Assembly (NCBI GenBank): GCA_945915275.1
Contig: CAMEEZ010000001.1
Location: forward strand, 8,204-72,203
Source of the DNA: an uncultured Mycoplasma sp.
Lineage (GTDB): Bacteria; Bacillota_I; Bacilli_A; RF39; UBA660
Length of the DNA: 64,000 bases
Reading direction: 5' to 3'
Shown here piece after piece: positions 175 through 63,157 of the stretch. The notes beneath the pieces were generated by a model, which ran no database searches, had not been told where the DNA came from, and saw only the letters and a list, made by a program, of their open reading frames with translations. The position numbers and the translations under genes are program-made. Position 1 is the stretch's first letter. Every line of letters starts with the position of its first letter.

Positions 175-203
175 TTGATAAAATTATGAAAATATGCTAT
201 AAT
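175..203 (+). promoter_or_regulatory. sigma-A type promoter for the hisS leader
   Basis: TTGATA (175-180), 17-nt spacer, TATAAT (198-203), read directly from the sequence. Confidence 0.6.
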
Positions 204-231
204 TTGATTGTTATGAAAAGGAGAGATTGTT

Positions 232-297
232 ATGTTTAAAATAATAATTAAAAATTTACATCACCATAATAGTCTGCACTTGAACCAGCGACATTAA
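232..297 (+). CDS. candidate His-rich leader peptide (21 aa, MFKIIIKNLHHHNSLHLNQRH)
   Basis: ATG at 232 is preceded by SD AAAGGAGAG with about 6 nt spacing. 5 of 21 codons are His, including CAT-CAC-CAT at 259-267. TAA stop at 295-297. The ORF lies between the promoter and a terminator upstream of hisS. Confidence 0.5.
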   Translation: MFKIIIKNLHHHNSLHLNQRH

Positions 298-360
298 AAA
301 ATGTTTTCGGTACAAGTGCTATTTGTGGTGCTTGTATCTAAATTTATATATAATTAATTA

Positions 361-390
361 GCTATACAAGGACCATTGTATAGCTTTTTT
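361..390 (+). terminator. intrinsic terminator (attenuator) upstream of hisS
   Basis: Perfect 9-bp stem GCTATACAA (361-369) / TTGTATAGC (376-384), loop GGACCA, then T6 (385-390). The 5' arm can alternatively pair with CTTGTAT at 331-337. Confidence 0.75.
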
Positions 391-416
391 AGACAAAAAT
401 AGAAAGAAGGATTTTT

Positions 417-1694
417 ATGAAAGTGCAAAATGTTAAAGGAAGTTATGATTTCTTACCTAAGGAGCAAAAAATTAGAAATTATATAAATAATATAATTGTA
501 GATAACTTTAAAAAATATGGATTTGTAAATATTGAAACTTCAATATTATGCTATTATGATATTCTTAGTGATAAATATGATGAAAATAATGATATATTAA
601 AGGAAATATATAGATTATCAGATCAAGGTAATAGAGATTTAGGGTTAAGATACGATTTAACGGTTCCATTCGCTAAATTTATTGCTTTAAATAAAAATAA
701 TATTACTTTTCCATTTAGAAGATATGAAATTTCAAAAGTATTTAGAGATGGTCCAGTTAAAGTTGGTAGGGACAGAGAATTTACTCAATGTGATGCTGAT
801 GTGGTTGGAATTAAAGGACAATATATAGAAGCAGAGTTGATATCTTTATTTGCTAAAACTTTTAAAGATTTAGATATTGATATTATAATAAAATTCAATA
901 ATAGAAAGTTAATGACAGGATTAATTATTGAATCCGGAATATCTGAGGAATTAATTCCTAAAGTGACTACAATTATAGACAAAAAAGATAAATTAAATAT
1001 TGAAGAAATTAATCAATTAATGAAGGAAATTGGATTGTCAAAACTTGAAATAGAAAAGTTGAATCAATATTTTCAAATGAATTTAATTGAATTAAATAAA
1101 ATGTTTAAAAATACAAATAATGAAAAAATAATAATAGGATTATTAGAAGTAAATAACTTAAATGATTATTTAAATGAACTTGAAATTGAATGTTGTTCTT
1201 TTGATGTAACATTAGCAAGAGGACAAAATTATTATACTGGAAATGTATTTGAAGTTTATGATAAGAAAAAAAGAATAAAAGGAAGTATTGCAGCAGGTGG
1301 AAGATATGATGAAATGATAAAAAACTATATTGGAGATAAAGAAGAATATCCTACGGTAGGGATAAGTTTTGGATTATCTGCGATATATGAATTATTAAAA
1401 GGAAATTTTGAAATAATAAATTCTGATATAGATATTTTTATAATTCCTATGGGAACCGAAGTAGAATCACTAAAAATAGCCAACAAACTAAGAAATTGTG
1501 GCTATAATGTTAAAATAGAAATGAAGAAAAGAAAATTAAAAAAATCTTTGGATTATGCTAATAGAGAAAAAATTAAATATGTCATAGTCTTAGGTCTAGA
1601 TGAATTATCAAATAAAACACTTAAAATCAAAAAAATGGATGAAGGAACAGAAATTTTAGTGGATATTAATAAGATTAGCGAATTAAAAATATAA
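417..1694 (+). CDS. hisS: histidine--tRNA ligase
   Basis: 425 aa. Class II HisRS motifs: RYDLTVPFAKF, FRRYEISKVFRDGP, REFTQCDADVVG, AAGGRYD. SD AGAAGGA upstream. Confidence 0.95.
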   Translation: MKVQNVKGSYDFLPKEQKIRNYINNIIVDNFKKYGFVNIETSILCYYDILSDKYDENNDILKEIYRLSDQGNRDLGLRYDLTVPFAKFIALNKNNITFPFRRYEISKVFRDGPVKVGRDREFTQCDADVVGIKGQYIEAELISLFAKTFKDLDIDIIIKFNNRKLMTGLIIESGISEELIPKVTTIIDKKDKLNIEEINQLMKEIGLSKLEIEKLNQYFQMNLIELNKMFKNTNNEKIIIGLLEVNNLNDYLNELEIECCSFDVTLARGQNYYTGNVFEVYDKKKRIKGSIAAGGRYDEMIKNYIGDKEEYPTVGISFGLSAIYELLKGNFEIINSDIDIFIIPMGTEVESLKIANKLRNCGYNVKIEMKKRKLKKSLDYANREKIKYVIVLGLDELSNKTLKIKKMDEGTEILVDINKISELKI

Positions 1695-1885: not shown

Positions 1886-3391
1886 ATGAATAACAATTTA
1901 TCAGATAATTTAAAAAAAATAAGAAAAGATAATAATCTTTCACAAGAACAATTGGCAGAAGAACTAGGAGTGTCAAGACAGGCTATCTCAAAATGGGAGT
2001 CAGGTGTTGCATATCCAGAAATGGATAAAATAATTCAATTATGCAATAAATTTGAGTTAAATATTGATGATTTATTAAACAAAGATATTAAGGAGATAAA
2101 AGGCGAGGAAATATCTAAGAATAATATTAATAAAGCAATTGATAGTTTTCTTAACTTTATAATAGATACTATTAATTTGTTTTATAACATGAGTTTTAAA
2201 AGTAAGATCAAGTGTTTATTTGAACAAGCTGTTGTTATTTTAATTTTATTAATTCTATGCTCTGTATTAGGATTAGTATTAGGTGATGTATTTGGAGGAA
2301 TATTAAGACATCTTCCAGATGATGGATATTATTTTATAAGTGATATATTTAAAGCAATTTATATTTTATTTTGTGTTATAGTATCTAGTGGGATAGTGAT
2401 TCATATATTTAAAACTAGATATTTAGATTACTATTCTAAAATAAAAAATGCTTCAACATTGGAAATAGAAGATAATTCTTTAAATGTACAAGATACTGAT
2501 TTAAAAGAAAATATTTCTGATGAAAATAAAAATGATAAAAAAAATAAAATATTATTTAAAAGAAATGAAGATAAAATAATTATAAGAGATCCTAAACATT
2601 CGGAATATAAATTTGTTCATGCAATTTTTAAATTCTTTGTTTTAGGGATTAAATTTTTTGCCTTAATTATTATGGGATTTTTATGCTTAGTATTAATTAC
2701 TTTATTAGCATGTTTTGTTTCATCTTTTATCATTAGTAAAACAGGTATATTTTTCATTGGACTATTATTGGCGTTTTTATCGGCTGGCATACTGGATATT
2801 GTTGTAATATTATTATTTTTAAATTTTATTTTTAATAGAAAAAATGATAAGAAAAAAATGATCTGGTTATTTATTATTTCCTTAATTATATTAGGAATAA
2901 GTATTGGATTATTGTTTATTGGAAGTTTAAAATTTGACTACATTACATTAGATAACAATAATGAATTTATTTCAACAAACAAAATAGAAATAGATATGAG
3001 TGATGATTTATTTATTAGTGATATACCTTATAGCTATGAGATTGAATATATTGAAAAAAATATCAGTAATGTTGAAGTTGAAATAAGAACTAATAAATTA
3101 TTTAATGTAAAGCATGAGGTTTATTCAAATGGTGAAGTATATTTTTATATTTATAGTCCTAATGCTAAAAAGATATTTGATAGTATTATTTCAAATTTAA
3201 ATAATTATAAAATAGTTGAAATAACTAATGAAATTTATGATTTTAAAGTATATGCTTCAAAAGAGAATATTGCTAAATTAAAGGAGAATTCTAGTAACTA
3301 TATAAATAATAATAAAGAAATTGAAAAGCAATTTGAAGAGTACGAAAGAACAATATCAGAATTAGAAAATAAAGAATGTGAATGTGAATAA
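1886..3391 (+). CDS. XRE-family HTH domain protein fused to a polytopic membrane region and a C-terminal non-membrane domain
   Basis: N-terminus LKKIRKDNNLSQEQLAEELGVSRQAISKWESG is a Cro/C1 HTH. Several long hydrophobic segments follow. The C-terminal ~150 aa is unrecognised. Confidence 0.7.
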   Translation: MNNNLSDNLKKIRKDNNLSQEQLAEELGVSRQAISKWESGVAYPEMDKIIQLCNKFELNIDDLLNKDIKEIKGEEISKNNINKAIDSFLNFIIDTINLFYNMSFKSKIKCLFEQAVVILILLILCSVLGLVLGDVFGGILRHLPDDGYYFISDIFKAIYILFCVIVSSGIVIHIFKTRYLDYYSKIKNASTLEIEDNSLNVQDTDLKENISDENKNDKKNKILFKRNEDKIIIRDPKHSEYKFVHAIFKFFVLGIKFFALIIMGFLCLVLITLLACFVSSFIISKTGIFFIGLLLAFLSAGILDIVVILLFLNFIFNRKNDKKKMIWLFIISLIILGISIGLLFIGSLKFDYITLDNNNEFISTNKIEIDMSDDLFISDIPYSYEIEYIEKNISNVEVEIRTNKLFNVKHEVYSNGEVYFYIYSPNAKKIFDSIISNLNNYKIVEITNEIYDFKVYASKENIAKLKENSSNYINNNKEIEKQFEEYERTISELENKECECE

Positions 3392-40059: not shown

Positions 40060-40175
40060 CTTGTTAGAAAAAGCGTTCACCGAAGACAGTAGGGACTTGA
40101 TAGTTTAATAATCCTACCGAGGGAAAACTTAAAACTTTGTTTTTTAAGCTTCCCTATTGTGGAAGCTTTTCTATA
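40060..40175 (+). promoter_or_regulatory. ribosomal protein L10 (rplJ) leader with an attenuator hairpin
   Basis: CCGAAGACAGTAGGGA...TCCTACCGAGGGAA forms a helix (GTAGG(G)A / TCCTAC). A terminator-like stem follows: AAGCTTCC (40146-40153) / GGAAGCTT (40161-40168), then Ts. GAGGGAA can alternatively pair with TTCCC. The position and layout fit the Firmicute L10 leader. Confidence 0.5.
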
Positions 40176-40192
40176 TAGTAAAGGAGGATAAA

Positions 40193-40684
40193 ATGGCAAG
40201 CGAGAAAATCATTAATATGAAAAAAGAAGTTGTAAGCGAGATTGTTGATAAAATAAAGAATAGTGAATCTGTTATTATTTTTCAATATCAAGGATTAACA
40301 GTTGCGGATGTTAGTGAGCTAAGAAAACTTCTTAAACCTGTTGAAGCTGAAGTAAAAGTATATAAAAATACTTTATTAAAAAGAGCTTTAGATGAAGTGA
40401 ATGTTGATTTAGCTGAATTTTTAGAAGGACCTAATGCAGTTTTATTCGGAAAGAATTTATTAGAACCAATTAAGGTTATTTCTGAATTTGCTAAAAAACA
40501 TGATAAATTAGATATTCGTGTTGGAATAATCAGTGGAGAAAAAGCTGAATTAGAAACAATAAAAGAATATGCCGAAATTCCATCAAGAGAAGGATTGTTA
40601 ACAATGTTAGCAGGTGGAATGATTCAATATGTAAGAGATTTAGCAATTGGTTTAAACCTTTATGCTGAGCAATTAGAAAAATAA
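40193..40684 (+). CDS. rplJ: 50S ribosomal protein L10
   Basis: Start moved to ATG 40193, after AAAGGAGGA. 163 aa. Followed by rplL. Confidence 0.92.
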   Translation: MASEKIINMKKEVVSEIVDKIKNSESVIIFQYQGLTVADVSELRKLLKPVEAEVKVYKNTLLKRALDEVNVDLAEFLEGPNAVLFGKNLLEPIKVISEFAKKHDKLDIRVGIISGEKAELETIKEYAEIPSREGLLTMLAGGMIQYVRDLAIGLNLYAEQLEK

Positions 40685-61910: not shown

Positions 61911-61919
61911 TGTTTTTAG

Positions 61920-62127
61920 AAAAGCGATGAAGATATTAAGTAATTATATATTTTCTAATACAGAGATGGGGTATTATTAGCTGAGAGTACTTCAAGATAA
62001 AATATATAATGAATTTCATTATTGGAGCTTTTAATAGTAATAGTGCTATAAACTAAGAAGAGCTAGAATCCTAGAATTTGGGTGGTACCGCGGGTTATTC
62101 TCGTCCCAAGTTGGAGGATTTTTTTAT
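61920..62127 (+). promoter_or_regulatory. T-box riboswitch (Phe, UUC specifier) controlling pheS-pheT
   Basis: Stem I elements are AGAGA (61962-61966) and GCTGAGAGTAC. The specifier is TTC-A at 61991-61994. The T-box sequence AATTTGGGTGGTACCGCG is at 62075-62092. The terminator pairs AATCCTAGAATTTGGG with CCCAAGTTGGAGGATT, followed by a T-run (to about 62127). Confidence 0.9.
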
Positions 62128-62143: not shown

Positions 62144-63157
62144 ATGCAAGAAAAGTTAAAAGGTATAGTAAGTGAATGTATAAAAGAAGTTGATTCTTGT
62201 AATAAAGAAGCTGATCTTTTAGTCATCAAGTCTAAGTATTTAGGAAAGAAAAGTGAATTGTTTTCTTTATTATCATCTTTAAAAGATATGAGTATTGAAG
62301 ATAAAAAGAAATATGGGGGACTTTTAAATAAAATTAAGGGAGATCTTGAAGGCAAGATTAATCAAAAATTAGAAGAAATTAATAGTAAGAGTAATATTTC
62401 TTTTGATGACACTTTACCAGTTTCTATAGAGAATGGGTCTTTGCATCCAATTACTTTAGTTGGAAAAGAAGTTACTGATATTTTAAAAAGAATGGGATTT
62501 ACTATTTTATCCGGTCCAGAAATGGAAAAAGAATATTACAATTTTGTGGCTTTAAATATTCCTGATACTCATCCAGCACGAGATATGCAAGATACTTATT
62601 GGTTAAGTAATGGGGATTTGCTTAGAACACATACATCTCCAATGCAAGTTAGAGCTATGGAAAAGTATAAAGCACCATTAAAAATATGTGCTCCTGGAAG
62701 AACTTTTAGAAATGAAGATATTGATGCATCACATGAGAATACATTTTTTCAAATTGAAGGTATGGTTATTGATGAAAATGTATCAATTAGTAATTTAATT
62801 TATGTTATGAAAGGAATGTTAAAAGAAGTATTTAAAAAGGATGTTAATGTTAGATTACGTCCAGGATTTTTCCCTTTTGTAGAGCCAGGATTTGAGCTTG
62901 ATTGTAGCTGTTTAATTTGTGATGGTAAAGGTTGTCCAACATGTAAAAATACTGGTTGGATAGAACTTTGTCCTTGTGGAATGATACATCCAGAAGTATT
63001 AAGAATGAGTAATATTGATACTGATAAATATACTGGTTTTGCTTTTGGGATGGGTTTAACTCGTCTTGTAATGATGAAATATAAATTTAATGATATAAGA
63101 GTATTAAATTCTGGTGATTTAAGAATTCTTAAAAACTTTGATGGAAAGGAAGGATAA
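62144..63157 (+). CDS. pheS: phenylalanine--tRNA ligase alpha subunit
   Basis: Class II motifs: HPARDMQDT, FRNEDIDASH, FFPFVEPG, GFAFGMGLTR. 337 aa. Confidence 0.96.
   Translation: MQEKLKGIVSECIKEVDSCNKEADLLVIKSKYLGKKSELFSLLSSLKDMSIEDKKKYGGLLNKIKGDLEGKINQKLEEINSKSNISFDDTLPVSIENGSLHPITLVGKEVTDILKRMGFTILSGPEMEKEYYNFVALNIPDTHPARDMQDTYWLSNGDLLRTHTSPMQVRAMEKYKAPLKICAPGRTFRNEDIDASHENTFFQIEGMVIDENVSISNLIYVMKGMLKEVFKKDVNVRLRPGFFPFVEPGFELDCSCLICDGKGCPTCKNTGWIELCPCGMIHPEVLRMSNIDTDKYTGFAFGMGLTRLVMMKYKFNDIRVLNSGDLRILKNFDGKEG

What the first reader, a model, noticed from the sequence alone, without database searches (positions are those of the whole stretch)
175..416. His-codon-rich leader ORF with interlocking alternative hairpins and a terminator upstream of hisS, with no T-box
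A good promoter (TTGATA-17-TATAAT, 175-203) precedes hisS (417). Between them lies a 21-codon ORF (232-297) with a strong SD. It encodes MFKIIIKNLHHHNSLHLNQRH, which has 5 His in 21 residues including a CAT-CAC-CAT run, in a genome whose proteins are otherwise His-poor. Downstream there is a chain of mutually exclusive helices that I verified base by base. (i) The His-codon region 262-269 pairs with 323-330, and 276-282 pairs with 313-319, forming a nested 15-bp two-part helix. (ii) 310-319 pairs with 328-337. (iii) CTTGTAT at 331-337 pairs with ATACAAG at 364-370. (iv) A perfect 9-bp terminator stem 361-369/376-384 is followed by T6. This is the architecture of ribosome-mediated (trp/his-operon style) attenuation. 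In Firmicutes, aminoacyl-tRNA synthetase genes including hisS are normally controlled by T-box riboswitches; pheS in this same window has a textbook T-box, while this leader has no GGUGGUACCGCG-like element. A leader-peptide attenuator on a synthetase gene in this phylum would be unusual. One caveat applies. My by-eye reading of the pairing hierarchy does not unambiguously give the expected polarity (stall leading to read-through). It may depend on where the ribosome sits at the stop codon (295-297), just 13 nt before helix ii.
Basis: partly seen in the sequence, partly recalled or inferred. Interest (0 to 1): 0.72.

Follow-up and report, generated by a model that had tools for sequence, protein, structure and literature searches.

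The report
Histidine leader-peptide attenuator controlling hisS
The stretch in front of the histidyl-tRNA synthetase gene is most likely a classical ribosome-sensing switch: a tiny His-rich reading frame decides between a terminator and an anti-terminator hairpin, and the switch is conserved in many uncultured gut Bacilli but belongs to a kind already predicted in Firmicutes.

Summary

- 15 of 19 close genomic relatives, plus 63 distinct metagenomic leaders, keep SD+ATG, a variable N-terminus, and HHH (or HxH/HH) in frame exactly 8 nt before the GCACUUG stem.
- The frame is open in 57/57 aligned leaders, against 2/57 and 0/57 for the other frames.
- All four helices keep pairing. Helix ii, the antiterminator and the terminator show compensatory changes above controls.
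- Constrained folding settles the polarity. A ribosome on the His codons gives the antiterminator. A ribosome at the stop codon, or no ribosome, gives the terminator.

The same leader heads other His-related operons (hisG, an M20 peptidase, a small unknown protein). A variant with Cys codons in place of His codons heads a radical-SAM/cysS operon.

His leader peptides were already predicted upstream of a Bacillus hisS paralog (2010) and of his operons in Firmicutes (2022). Paenibacillus hisS relatives also carry one. This is therefore a new member of a known kind.

The parts
175..203 (+). Sigma-70-type promoter: -35 TTGATA (175-180), 17-nt spacer with TG at 195-196, -10 TATAAT (198-203). The transcript probably starts near 210.
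   Evidence: 11/12 match, TG present. A comparable promoter precedes the leaders of relatives.
218..225 (+). Shine-Dalgarno sequence of the leader ORF (AAGGAGAG; GGAG at 220-223).
   Evidence: The purine-rich block and the ATG are conserved in the alignments.
232..297 (+). Leader ORF, 21 codons: MFKIIIKNLHHHNSLHLNQRH, stop codon TAA at 295-297.
   Evidence: In 57/57 aligned leaders the conserved ATG is in frame with the regulatory codons. Leader lengths differ by whole codons. Frame 0 is open in 57/57 against 2/57 and 0/57 for the other frames. There are 55 different N-terminal segments.
259..267 (+). Regulatory His codons CAT-CAC-CAT, the proposed ribosome stall site when His-tRNA is scarce.
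   Evidence: Of 57 aligned leaders, 51, 47 and 52 have His at these three codon positions. The exceptions are mostly Tyr, or Cys in the cysS variant. These codons were not part of the search pattern.
262..269 (+). Outer 5' strand of hairpin H1 (the His codons themselves). It pairs with 323-330 and so ties up the 5' part of the antiterminator strand when no ribosome is present.
   Evidence: Pairing is kept in 88-93% of cells but shows no covariation above control, so this helix is the least certain.
276..282 (+). R1: inner 5' strand of H1 (GCACUUG), 8 nt after the last His codon. It pairs with 313-319.
   Evidence: Compensatory GC->AU and CG->UA changes in L009 and L012. The spacing from the His codons is constant, giving the fixed frame H-H-H-x-x-x-H-L.
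309..321 (+). R2: pairs either with R1 (H1 inner stem) or with R3 (helix ii/H2, 309-321 with 326-338).
   Evidence: H2 forms when a ribosome sits at the stop codon. (97% of cells paired, 3 pairs with changes on both sides). RNAalifold picks H2 as the consensus.
323..338 (+). R3: 323-330 pairs with the His codons; 326-338 pairs with R2 (H2); 327-337 pairs with R4 (antiterminator H3).
360..374 (+). R4: 364-374 pairs with R3 (antiterminator H3, -14.7 kcal/mol); 360-369 is the 5' arm of the terminator.
   Evidence: 92% of cells paired; 18 double-change cells against 1.0 +/- 2.2 in shuffles..
360..390 (+). Intrinsic terminator: 10-bp stem 360-369/376-385, loop GGACCA, T-run 385-390.
   Evidence: (95% of cells paired; 53 double-change cells against 13.8 +/- 5.5). 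Stem energy -12.3 kcal/mol.
417..1694 (+). hisS, the regulated gene. Its own SD (AAGGA) lies at 407-411 and is not sequestered by the terminator.
   Evidence: TIGR00442, 337 bits..

Best explanation
This is a ribosome-mediated (leader-peptide) transcription attenuator that ties hisS transcription to the supply of charged tRNA-His.

Transcription starts at the 175-203 promoter, and a ribosome loads on the 21-codon leader. Five RNA segments form a relay of mutually exclusive helices:
- R1 (276-282) with R2 (313-319);
- R2 (309-321) with R3 (326-338);
- R3 (327-337) with R4 (364-374), the antiterminator;
- R4 (360-369) with R5 (376-385) plus U-run, the terminator.

Three states follow.
1. His-tRNA scarce. 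The ribosome stalls on CAU-CAC-CAU (259-267), just 5' of R1. R1:R2 forms behind it. The partner of the His codons (323-330) is freed, so R3 is fully available and pairs with R4. The terminator cannot form, and RNA polymerase reads into hisS.
2. His-tRNA plentiful. The ribosome runs through R1 to the stop codon at 295-297. R2 is free and snaps onto the adjacent R3. R4 stays free and forms the terminator with R5. Transcription ends near 390.
3. No translation. The full H1 hairpin forms. The His codons pair with 323-330, leaving only 7 nt of R3 for R4, so the terminator wins and the default state is OFF.

Shown here: the sequence elements, their conservation, the coding constraint on the leader, covariation in the helices, and the thermodynamic switch under ribosome-footprint constraints. 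Inferred: that ribosomes actually stall there, that transcription and translation are synchronised, and that termination occurs in vivo.
For: (1) Anatomy. All parts are present, and the fold is far more stable than shuffles.

(2) The leader is under coding constraint, not only RNA constraint.
- In alignment A2 the invariant ATG is in frame with the regulatory codons in 57/57 leaders.
- The distance from ATG to the regulatory codons varies only by whole codons (13-17 codons).
- Frame 0 is open in 57/57, against 2/57 and 0/57 for the other frames.
- There are 55 different N-terminal peptides.

(3) The regulatory codons are conserved. His occupies the three positions in 51, 47 and 52 of 57 leaders. 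The metagenome search pattern contained no His codon. Window proteins hold 1.16% His and no HHH run.

(4) Helices.
- H1: 88% of cells paired, 7 pairs with changes on both sides.
- H2: 97% paired, 3 such pairs.
- H3: 92% paired, 18 double-change cells against 1.0 +/- 2.2 in shuffles.
- H4: 95% paired, 53 double-change cells against 13.8 +/- 5.5.
- RNAalifold's consensus is H2 + H4.

(5) Polarity.
- Free RNA gives H1 plus the terminator.
- A footprint on His1, His2 or His3 (P-12 to P+11 or P+13) gives H1 inner stem plus the antiterminator, with no terminator pairs.
- A footprint at the stop codon gives H2 plus the terminator.
- Helix energies are -18.1 (H1 inner), -15.2 (H2), -14.7 (H3) and -12.3 (H4) kcal/mol.

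(6) A short variant (L010, L011, L017 and others) has lost R4 and R5 and uses R2:R3 plus a U-run as the terminator. This keeps the same polarity: R1:R2 formed means ON.

(7) Regulon logic. The same leader precedes hisS directly (22 leaders), or heads operons that end in hisS (L004, L018, L104, L118, L200). It also precedes hisG (PF01634) and an M20 peptidase.

(8) Codon swap. Three leaders on the same scaffold carry Cys codons where the others carry His. In L165 the operon is radical-SAM then cysS (TIGR00435, 427 bits).

(9) The sensor is not a T-box, although the genome uses one for pheS.
Against: - There is no experimental evidence of any kind: no 3' ends, no reporter data, no ribosome profiling.
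- Across all 73 homologues, equilibrium MFE folding does not reproduce the switch cleanly. With the full leader, the terminator is still predicted in about 60% of stalled-ribosome folds. With the 3' arm withheld, the terminator's 5' arm is pre-occupied 86% of the time when stalled against 56% at the stop codon. The switch must therefore be kinetic. This is normal for attenuators but untested here.
- With the widest footprint (P+15) on the third His codon, the window's fold flips to the terminator.
- The pairing of the His codons with 323-330 has no covariation support.
- R1, R2 and R3 were part of the metagenome search pattern, so their conservation in those hits is circular. Independent support for them comes only from the 14 genomic leaders.
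- In B. subtilis, transcription outruns the leading ribosome (reviewed in PMC7858274). That would work against ribosome-mediated attenuation unless RNA polymerase pauses in the leader.
- Two further His codons (277-279 and 292-294) lie where a stall would favour termination.
Confidence: 0.85

Rival explanations
1. A divergent T-box (or another tRNA-binding leader) that reads uncharged tRNA-His directly. The CAU/CAC would act as specifier and the antiterminator would be stabilised by the tRNA 3' end.
For: In Firmicutes, aaRS genes are usually T-box controlled, and pheS in this window is. His codons sit in a conserved hairpin, and a terminator/antiterminator pair is present.
Against: The Rfam T-box model finds nothing in 100-500 even at E <= 10, yet it scores 82.7 bits on the pheS leader of the same genome. 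The stretch that would have to hold the tRNA-end-binding UGGN varies (GUGGUG, GUAGUG, GGAGUG, AGAGUG, GUGAUG). The His codons are always in frame with a conserved SD+ATG across variable-length, variable-sequence N-termini. A tRNA-binding RNA has no need for that.
Confidence: 0.02
2. A translation-independent RNA switch: a riboswitch, or the target of an RNA-binding regulator responding to histidine. The short ORF would be incidental.
For: The fold is strongly structured and conserved. The element sits upstream of His-related genes, which any His-responsive regulator would also do.
Against: The open frame, the in-frame SD+ATG, the whole-codon indels and the 55 distinct N-termini show selection for translation. 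Swapping His codons for Cys codons accompanies a swap of hisS for cysS on an otherwise similar scaffold. That is hard to explain by ligand or protein recognition. No Rfam family matches.
Confidence: 0.05
3. A leader-peptide attenuator that senses general translation slow-down or ribosome availability rather than His-tRNA specifically.
For: The mechanism only needs a ribosome to dwell 5' of R1. Some relatives have only two His codons, or HxH.
Against: His is kept at the three positions in 82-91% of leaders, while flanking residues vary. The regulated genes are hisS, hisG and operons ending in hisS. The Cys-codon variant sits on cysS.
Confidence: 0.05
4. An independent small-protein gene with its own terminator and no regulatory link to hisS.
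For: The element has its own SD, ATG, stop codon and a terminator downstream.
Against: Only the residues that overlap RNA helices and the His run are conserved. The rest of the peptide is free to vary. hisS has no promoter-like site of its own better than 9/12 between 298 and 416. The terminator overlaps a covarying antiterminator. The element always lies immediately 5' of a gene on the same strand.
Confidence: 0.03

Closest known systems
His leader peptide predicted upstream of the Bacillus hisS paralog (hisS*) and hisZ (Naville & Gautheret 2010, PMC2965389)
   Same: Both have a short ORF with a run of His codons and a premature terminator, upstream of a HisRS-family gene in Firmicutes, in place of a T-box. 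The window's HisS is of the PRK12420 type. Its Paenibacillus relatives (38-39% identity, L022-L024, L028, L029, L033, L035, L038, L041) carry a leader ending ...LHHHKKR*, followed by a relay of hairpins and a terminator. The gene/leader association therefore looks old.
   Different: The Paenibacillus leaders are GC-rich and have no recognisable sequence similarity to this one. Their stop codon lies inside R1, only 3 codons after the His run. I could not obtain the Bacillus sequences themselves, so homology as opposed to analogy is untested. In the window, hisS is the only HisRS gene seen, and whether the genome has a second copy is unknown. The family here also controls non-hisS operons and has a Cys variant.
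Candidate His-leader attenuators of his operons in the B. cereus group, Peptostreptococcaceae and Erysipelotrichales (Ashniev et al. 2022, PMC9413887)
   Same: Firmicutes lacking HisR and His T-boxes. Leader peptides with 3-5 consecutive His codons lie immediately upstream of attenuator, antiterminator and terminator hairpins. Some metagenomic members of the present family head a hisG operon.
   Different: That study did not examine hisS (the word does not occur in the paper). Their alignments are not readable in the held supplement, so identity with the present scaffold could not be checked. Their operons start with hisZ; the ones here start with hisG.
Enterobacterial his operon attenuator (hisL; Rfam His_leader RF00514)
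   Same: Same logic: a run of His codons and a relay of alternative hairpins (A:B, B:C, C:D, D:E, E:F) ending in a terminator. The default state without translation is termination. A ribosome stalled on the His codons shifts the register to the antiterminating set. (Own knowledge of the Salmonella/E. coli system; the general mechanism is summarised in PMC9413887.)
   Different: The covariance model does not match. There are 3 His codons rather than 7, and five segments rather than six. The stalled ribosome sits just 5' of R1 rather than on the first pairing segment. The regulated gene is an aaRS, not a biosynthetic operon.
E. coli pheST attenuator (pheM leader peptide)
   Same: Ribosome-mediated attenuation of an aminoacyl-tRNA synthetase operon by a leader rich in the cognate codons (own knowledge; not checked in the library).
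   Different: Different phylum, amino acid and sequence.
T-box leaders (RF00230)
   Same: Same regulatory task on aaRS genes, and the same output: terminator versus antiterminator.
   Different: The sensor is a translating ribosome rather than direct tRNA binding. No Stem I/specifier architecture or T-box sequence is present.

Membership tests
Leader-peptide (ribosome-mediated) transcription attenuators | Short ORF with ribosome-binding site and start codon that is actually under selection for translation | tested here: met
   SD and ATG are conserved. The ATG is in frame in 57/57 leaders, indels are whole codons, frame 0 is open in 57/57 against 2/57 and 0/57, and the N-terminus is variable.
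Leader-peptide (ribosome-mediated) transcription attenuators | Run of codons for the amino acid related to the regulated gene | tested here: met
   CAT-CAC-CAT at 259-267. His occupies the three positions in 51, 47 and 52 of 57 leaders. Downstream genes are hisS, hisG and operons ending in hisS. The Cys-codon variant sits on a cysS operon.
Leader-peptide (ribosome-mediated) transcription attenuators | Intrinsic terminator between the leader ORF and the regulated gene | tested here: met
   Stem 360-385 plus T-run. Covariation is above controls.
Leader-peptide (ribosome-mediated) transcription attenuators | Antiterminator mutually exclusive with the terminator, with the choice set by ribosome position | tested here: met
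   H3 (327-337/364-374) shares 364-369 with the terminator stem and covaries. Constrained folds switch as expected in the window. Equilibrium folds over all homologues give only a partial separation.
Leader-peptide (ribosome-mediated) transcription attenuators | Read-through increases in vivo when the cognate charged tRNA is limiting | not testable with these tools
   This needs Term-seq, reporters or in vitro coupled transcription-translation.
T-box leader (RF00230) | Match to the covariance model: Stem I with specifier loop, and a conserved T-box sequence in the antiterminator bulge | tested here: not met
   No hit in 100-500 at E <= 10. The same model scores 82.7 bits on the pheS leader.
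Rfam His_leader (RF00514) | Match to the covariance model | tested here: not met
   No hit at E <= 10. Ashniev et al. likewise found no RF00514 match in Firmicutes (PMC9413887).
Firmicutes hisS*/hisZ His leader of Naville & Gautheret 2010 | Short ORF with a His-codon stretch plus a premature terminator upstream of a HisRS-family gene in Firmicutes | tested here: met
   description in PMC2965389.
Firmicutes hisS*/hisZ His leader of Naville & Gautheret 2010 | Sequence relatedness to the Bacillus elements (they were defined by sequence clustering of 5' UTRs) | not tested
   The Bacillus sequences are not on hand. The Paenibacillus leaders on the related HisRS gene share the architecture but show no evident sequence similarity.

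The most novel reading that the evidence does not exclude
In a lineage of AT-rich, uncultured gut and rumen Bacilli, a single leader-peptide attenuator scaffold has been re-programmed by codon substitution (His to Cys) to control different aminoacyl-tRNA synthetase operons (hisS, cysS) and amino-acid supply genes. It takes over a job done elsewhere in Firmicutes by T-boxes. If it works as predicted, these Firmicutes must keep the leading ribosome close enough to RNA polymerase for ribosome-mediated attenuation, unlike the uncoupled regime described for B. subtilis.
Probability: 0.5. Interest if true: 0.6.

Novelty: new member of a known kind. Interest (0 to 1): 0.45.

Why it matters
This shows that hisS, and at least cysS in relatives, can be governed in Firmicutes by a translating ribosome rather than by a T-box. 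Such control was previously only predicted, for a Bacillus hisS paralog.

The family is compact (about 180 nt), abundant in gut and rumen metagenomes, and comes in natural variants:
- long and short forms;
- His and Cys codon versions;
- leaders with two or three regulatory codons.

This makes it a convenient natural test set for three questions: how ribosome-mediated attenuation is tuned, whether transcription-translation coupling exists in these Bacilli, and which genes of unknown function belong to a His-starvation regulon. Candidates for that regulon are a conserved 80-96 aa protein, an M20 peptidase and a protein of about 260 aa.

For annotation, the 21-codon ORF should be labelled a leader peptide and the region a cis-regulatory attenuator. 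No Rfam model covers it.

Tried and rejected
- T-box and His_leader models were tried on the leader with no hits. An Rfam scan of two Paenibacillus loci and L005 found no leader family either.
- I tested the switch across all 73 homologues by equilibrium MFE folding. With the full leader, the terminator often stays the MFE even with a stalled-ribosome constraint. Withholding the terminator's 3' arm gives only a partial separation, 0.86 against 0.56. I therefore rely on the window's own folds plus covariation, and I call the switch kinetic.
- Covariation of the pairing between the His codons and 323-330 is not above control. That helix is kept only as a plausible default-OFF device.
- A second copy, or other amino-acid variants, were sought in the window and none was found with up to 3 mismatches. 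Among all loci, only the Cys variants and a second His copy in L148 turned up.
- I tried to compare with the Erysipelotrichales attenuators of Ashniev et al., but the supplement alignments are illegible in the held text.
- I did not build a covariance model. The R2-R3 core is so invariant that pattern search gave the same reach.
- Of the 120 metagenome pattern matches, 49 had no leader features and were discarded as chance hits.

Full report
**What is there**

The window is very AT-rich, 23-31% G+C. The hisS gene at 417-1694 scores 337 bits on TIGR00442, above the 287 cut-off. All of the following lie upstream, at the stated coordinates:
- the best promoter-like site of the first 2 kb: TTGATA, 17-nt spacer, TATAAT at 175-203, with a TG extended -10;
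- a Shine-Dalgarno block, with GGAG at 220-223;
- a 21-codon ORF at 232-297 encoding MFKIIIKNLHHHNSLHLNQRH;
- a 10-bp hairpin at 360-385 followed by T6. This is the only terminator-like site on the + strand in 2 kb, where 0.2 are expected by chance.

Five His in 21 residues is far from background. The 59 long ORFs of the window contain 1.16% His and no HHH run, giving P = 3.7e-6. The region 205-395 folds at -51.8 kcal/mol, against -30 +/- 3.5 for shuffles (z = -6.3).

No T-box or His_leader model matches the region even at E <= 10. The pheS leader at 61918-62111 is a clear T-box with 82.7 bits and E = 2e-18. It falls just under Rfam's gathering score, which is why the default scan missed it.

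**Relatives from genomes**

A scan of one genome per species returned 19 close relatives of this HisS (56-79% identity). All are uncultured 'Bacilli'/CAG-type MAGs from gut and rumen.
- Thirteen carry the same leader directly upstream of hisS.
- Two more (L004, L018) carry it at the head of an operon that ends in hisS.
- Four lack it. L008 looks like a deletion remnant that keeps the promoter and SD.

The leaders share SD+ATG, an N-terminal segment that differs in almost every genome, then HHH (or HYH/HHY) in frame. Exactly 8 nt later comes GCACUUG, whose complement CAAGUGC lies 23-32 nt downstream.

Three genomes (L010, L011, L017) have a short form. In these the hairpin CAAGUGC...GUGCUUG is followed directly by a U-run and is itself the terminator.

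**Relatives from metagenomes**

A pattern containing only the R1/R2/R3 cores, with no His codon, was scanned over the metagenome collection. Seventy-one of these are leaders (63 distinct) and the rest are chance matches.

In a 57-sequence alignment (A2):
- the invariant ATG is in frame with the regulatory codons in 57/57 leaders;
- the ATG-to-stem distance takes only whole-codon values (13-17 codons);
- the leader frame is open in 57/57, against 2/57 and 0/57 for the other frames;
- there are 55 different N-terminal peptides;
- His occupies the three regulatory positions in 51, 47 and 52 of 57 leaders.

This is the signature of a translated but otherwise unconstrained leader peptide.

**Structure support**

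On the 14 genomic leaders (A1, where no part was fixed by a search pattern):
- H1 is paired in 88% of cells, with 7 pairs changed on both sides;
- H2 in 97%, with 3 such pairs;
- H3 in 91.5%, with 3;
- H4 in 98%, with 1.

On A2 the two helices not fixed by the search pattern exceed all controls. H3 has 18 double-change cells against 1.0 +/- 2.2 in shuffles, and H4 has 53 against 13.8 +/- 5.5. The slid-partner controls drop to 15-52% paired. RNAalifold's consensus is H2 + H4, the termination set. The pairing of the His codons with 323-330 is kept in 93% of cells but has no covariation support.

**Mechanism and polarity**

The window's leader was folded with a ribosome footprint forced single-stranded.
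- Free RNA gives the complete H1 plus the terminator.
- A ribosome with His1, His2 or His3 in the A site (P-12 to P+11 or P+13) keeps the H1 inner stem. All antiterminator pairs (327-337/364-374) form and no terminator pairs do.
- A ribosome with the stop codon in the A site gives H2 (309-321/326-338) plus the terminator.

The individual helices are -18.1 (H1 inner), -15.2 (H2), -14.7 (H3) and -12.3 (H4) kcal/mol.

The key point is that the stalled ribosome sits just 5' of R1. It does not cover R1, so R1:R2 survives and blocks H2. At the same time the His codons release 323-330, which lengthens the usable antiterminator strand from 7 to 11 positions. The short variants obey the same rule: R1:R2 formed means no terminator.

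Over all homologues, equilibrium folding separates the states only partly. The decision must be kinetic, as in known attenuators. This step is inferred, not shown.

**Specificity: what the leader controls**

Directly downstream of the 63 metagenomic leaders lie the following:
- hisS (22 leaders);
- a conserved 79-96 aa protein with no Pfam or NCBIfam match (18);
- an M20 peptidase (6);
- a protein of about 260 aa (3);
- hisG (2);
- a few others.

In several contigs, hisS follows further down the same operon. In L118 the order is leader, 83-aa protein, 199-aa protein, TIGR00725-family protein, hisS. One contig (L148) carries two His leaders.

Three leaders on the same scaffold carry Cys codons in place of two of the three His codons (...RHCCMNWHL...QHCCRCLHL...QHCCNNLHL). 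In L165 the operon is a radical-SAM protein followed by cysS (TIGR00435, 427 bits). This swap of codons together with the cognate synthetase is the strongest single argument that the codons are the sensor.

**Comparison with what is known**

The kind is known.
- Naville & Gautheret (PMC2965389) predicted a His leader peptide upstream of the Bacillus hisS paralog hisS* and of hisZ. They stressed that it replaces a T-box.
- Ashniev et al. (PMC9413887) predicted His-leader attenuators on his operons in the B. cereus group, Peptostreptococcaceae and Erysipelotrichales. They found no RF00514 match in Firmicutes.

The HisS here is of the PRK12420 type. Its next relatives in the genome scan are DPANN archaea and Paenibacillus, at 35-41% identity. 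Nine of those more distant loci, seven from Paenibacillus and two from Bacillota MAGs, carry a GC-rich leader (...LHHHKKR*, LHYHYKQR*, SHYYHKKR*). Each is followed by an analogous relay of hairpins and a terminator. The gene/leader association therefore seems to travel with this HisRS subfamily. I could not test sequence homology with the published Bacillus or Erysipelotrichales elements.

The element is not a member of Rfam His_leader or T-box, since both model tests were not met. It works like the enterobacterial his attenuator and the E. coli pheST attenuator.

**Verdict**

Novelty is modest: a new, well-populated member of a known kind. Two additions have some interest: the His-to-Cys re-programming on synthetase operons, and a candidate His-starvation regulon in uncultured Bacilli.

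Transcription is reported to outrun translation in B. subtilis (PMC7858274). A working ribosome-mediated attenuator family in Bacilli would therefore be worth an experiment.

Noticed in passing
L165:2551-2720 (-), L152:1007-1169 (+), L186:31-195 (-): Three leaders on the same RNA scaffold have Cys codons (TGT/TGC) in place of two of the three His codons. In L165 the downstream operon is a radical-SAM protein (297 aa) followed by cysS (TIGR00435, 427 bits). L152 has the same radical-SAM gene before its contig ends.
   Followed up: partly
window 61918-62111 (+): The T-box leader upstream of pheS (62144-63157) scores 82.7 bits, E = 1.9e-18. That is below Rfam's gathering score of 93, so a default Rfam scan of the window misses it.
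   Followed up: yes
L118:3807-4058 (-) and 17 other loci (e.g. L091, L092, L104, L200): A conserved 79-96 aa protein (MKEIKxGIVFSNDI...YPHC) is the most frequent non-hisS gene directly after the His leader. It has no Pfam or NCBIfam match. It is often the first gene of an operon that ends in hisS.
   Followed up: partly
L090, L107, L115, L119, L163, L189; also L004 upstream of hisS: An M20-family peptidase (PF01546) of about 330-350 aa lies under the His leader, sometimes followed by hisS. It may release histidine from a peptide or an acylated form.
   Followed up: no
L114 and L181: The His leader precedes a short-form hisG (PF01634, about 195 aa). In L114, tblastn places a HisS-like ORF about 0.9 kb downstream of the leader, just after hisG. 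This raises the question whether this HisRS type also serves as HisZ; the window's HisS scores 166 bits on the hisZ model, below its cut-off.
   Followed up: no
L022-L024, L028, L029, L033, L035, L038, L041 (about 100-190 nt upstream of position 3001; 2690 in L024): Paenibacillus and Bacillota-MAG relatives of this HisS (35-39% identity) carry GC-rich His leader peptides (...LHHHKKR*, LHYHYKQR*, SHYYHKKR*) with alternative hairpins and a terminator. No Rfam family matched in the two loci scanned (L022, L028).
   Followed up: partly
one search hit list (L019, L021, L026, L027, L030-L032, L034, L036, L037, L039, L040): Outside its own clade, the nearest relatives of this HisS (35-41% identity) are DPANN-type archaea and Paenibacillus, not the canonical Firmicutes HisS. 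This suggests an old transfer of this HisRS subfamily.
   Followed up: no
L008:2900-3000: One relative keeps the promoter and the SD-like block but has lost the leader ORF and hairpins, leaving only ...GAAAGGTCTGTAGTATTGCTTTTTT. It looks like a deletion of the attenuator.
   Followed up: no
L148 (two sites on the - strand): Two separate His leaders lie about 2.2 kb apart on one contig, each heading its own transcription unit. This is consistent with a multi-operon His regulon in one genome.
   Followed up: no
window 40062-40181 (+): A ribosomal protein L10 leader (RF00557, 70.7 bits) lies upstream of the ORF at 40157-40684.
   Followed up: no
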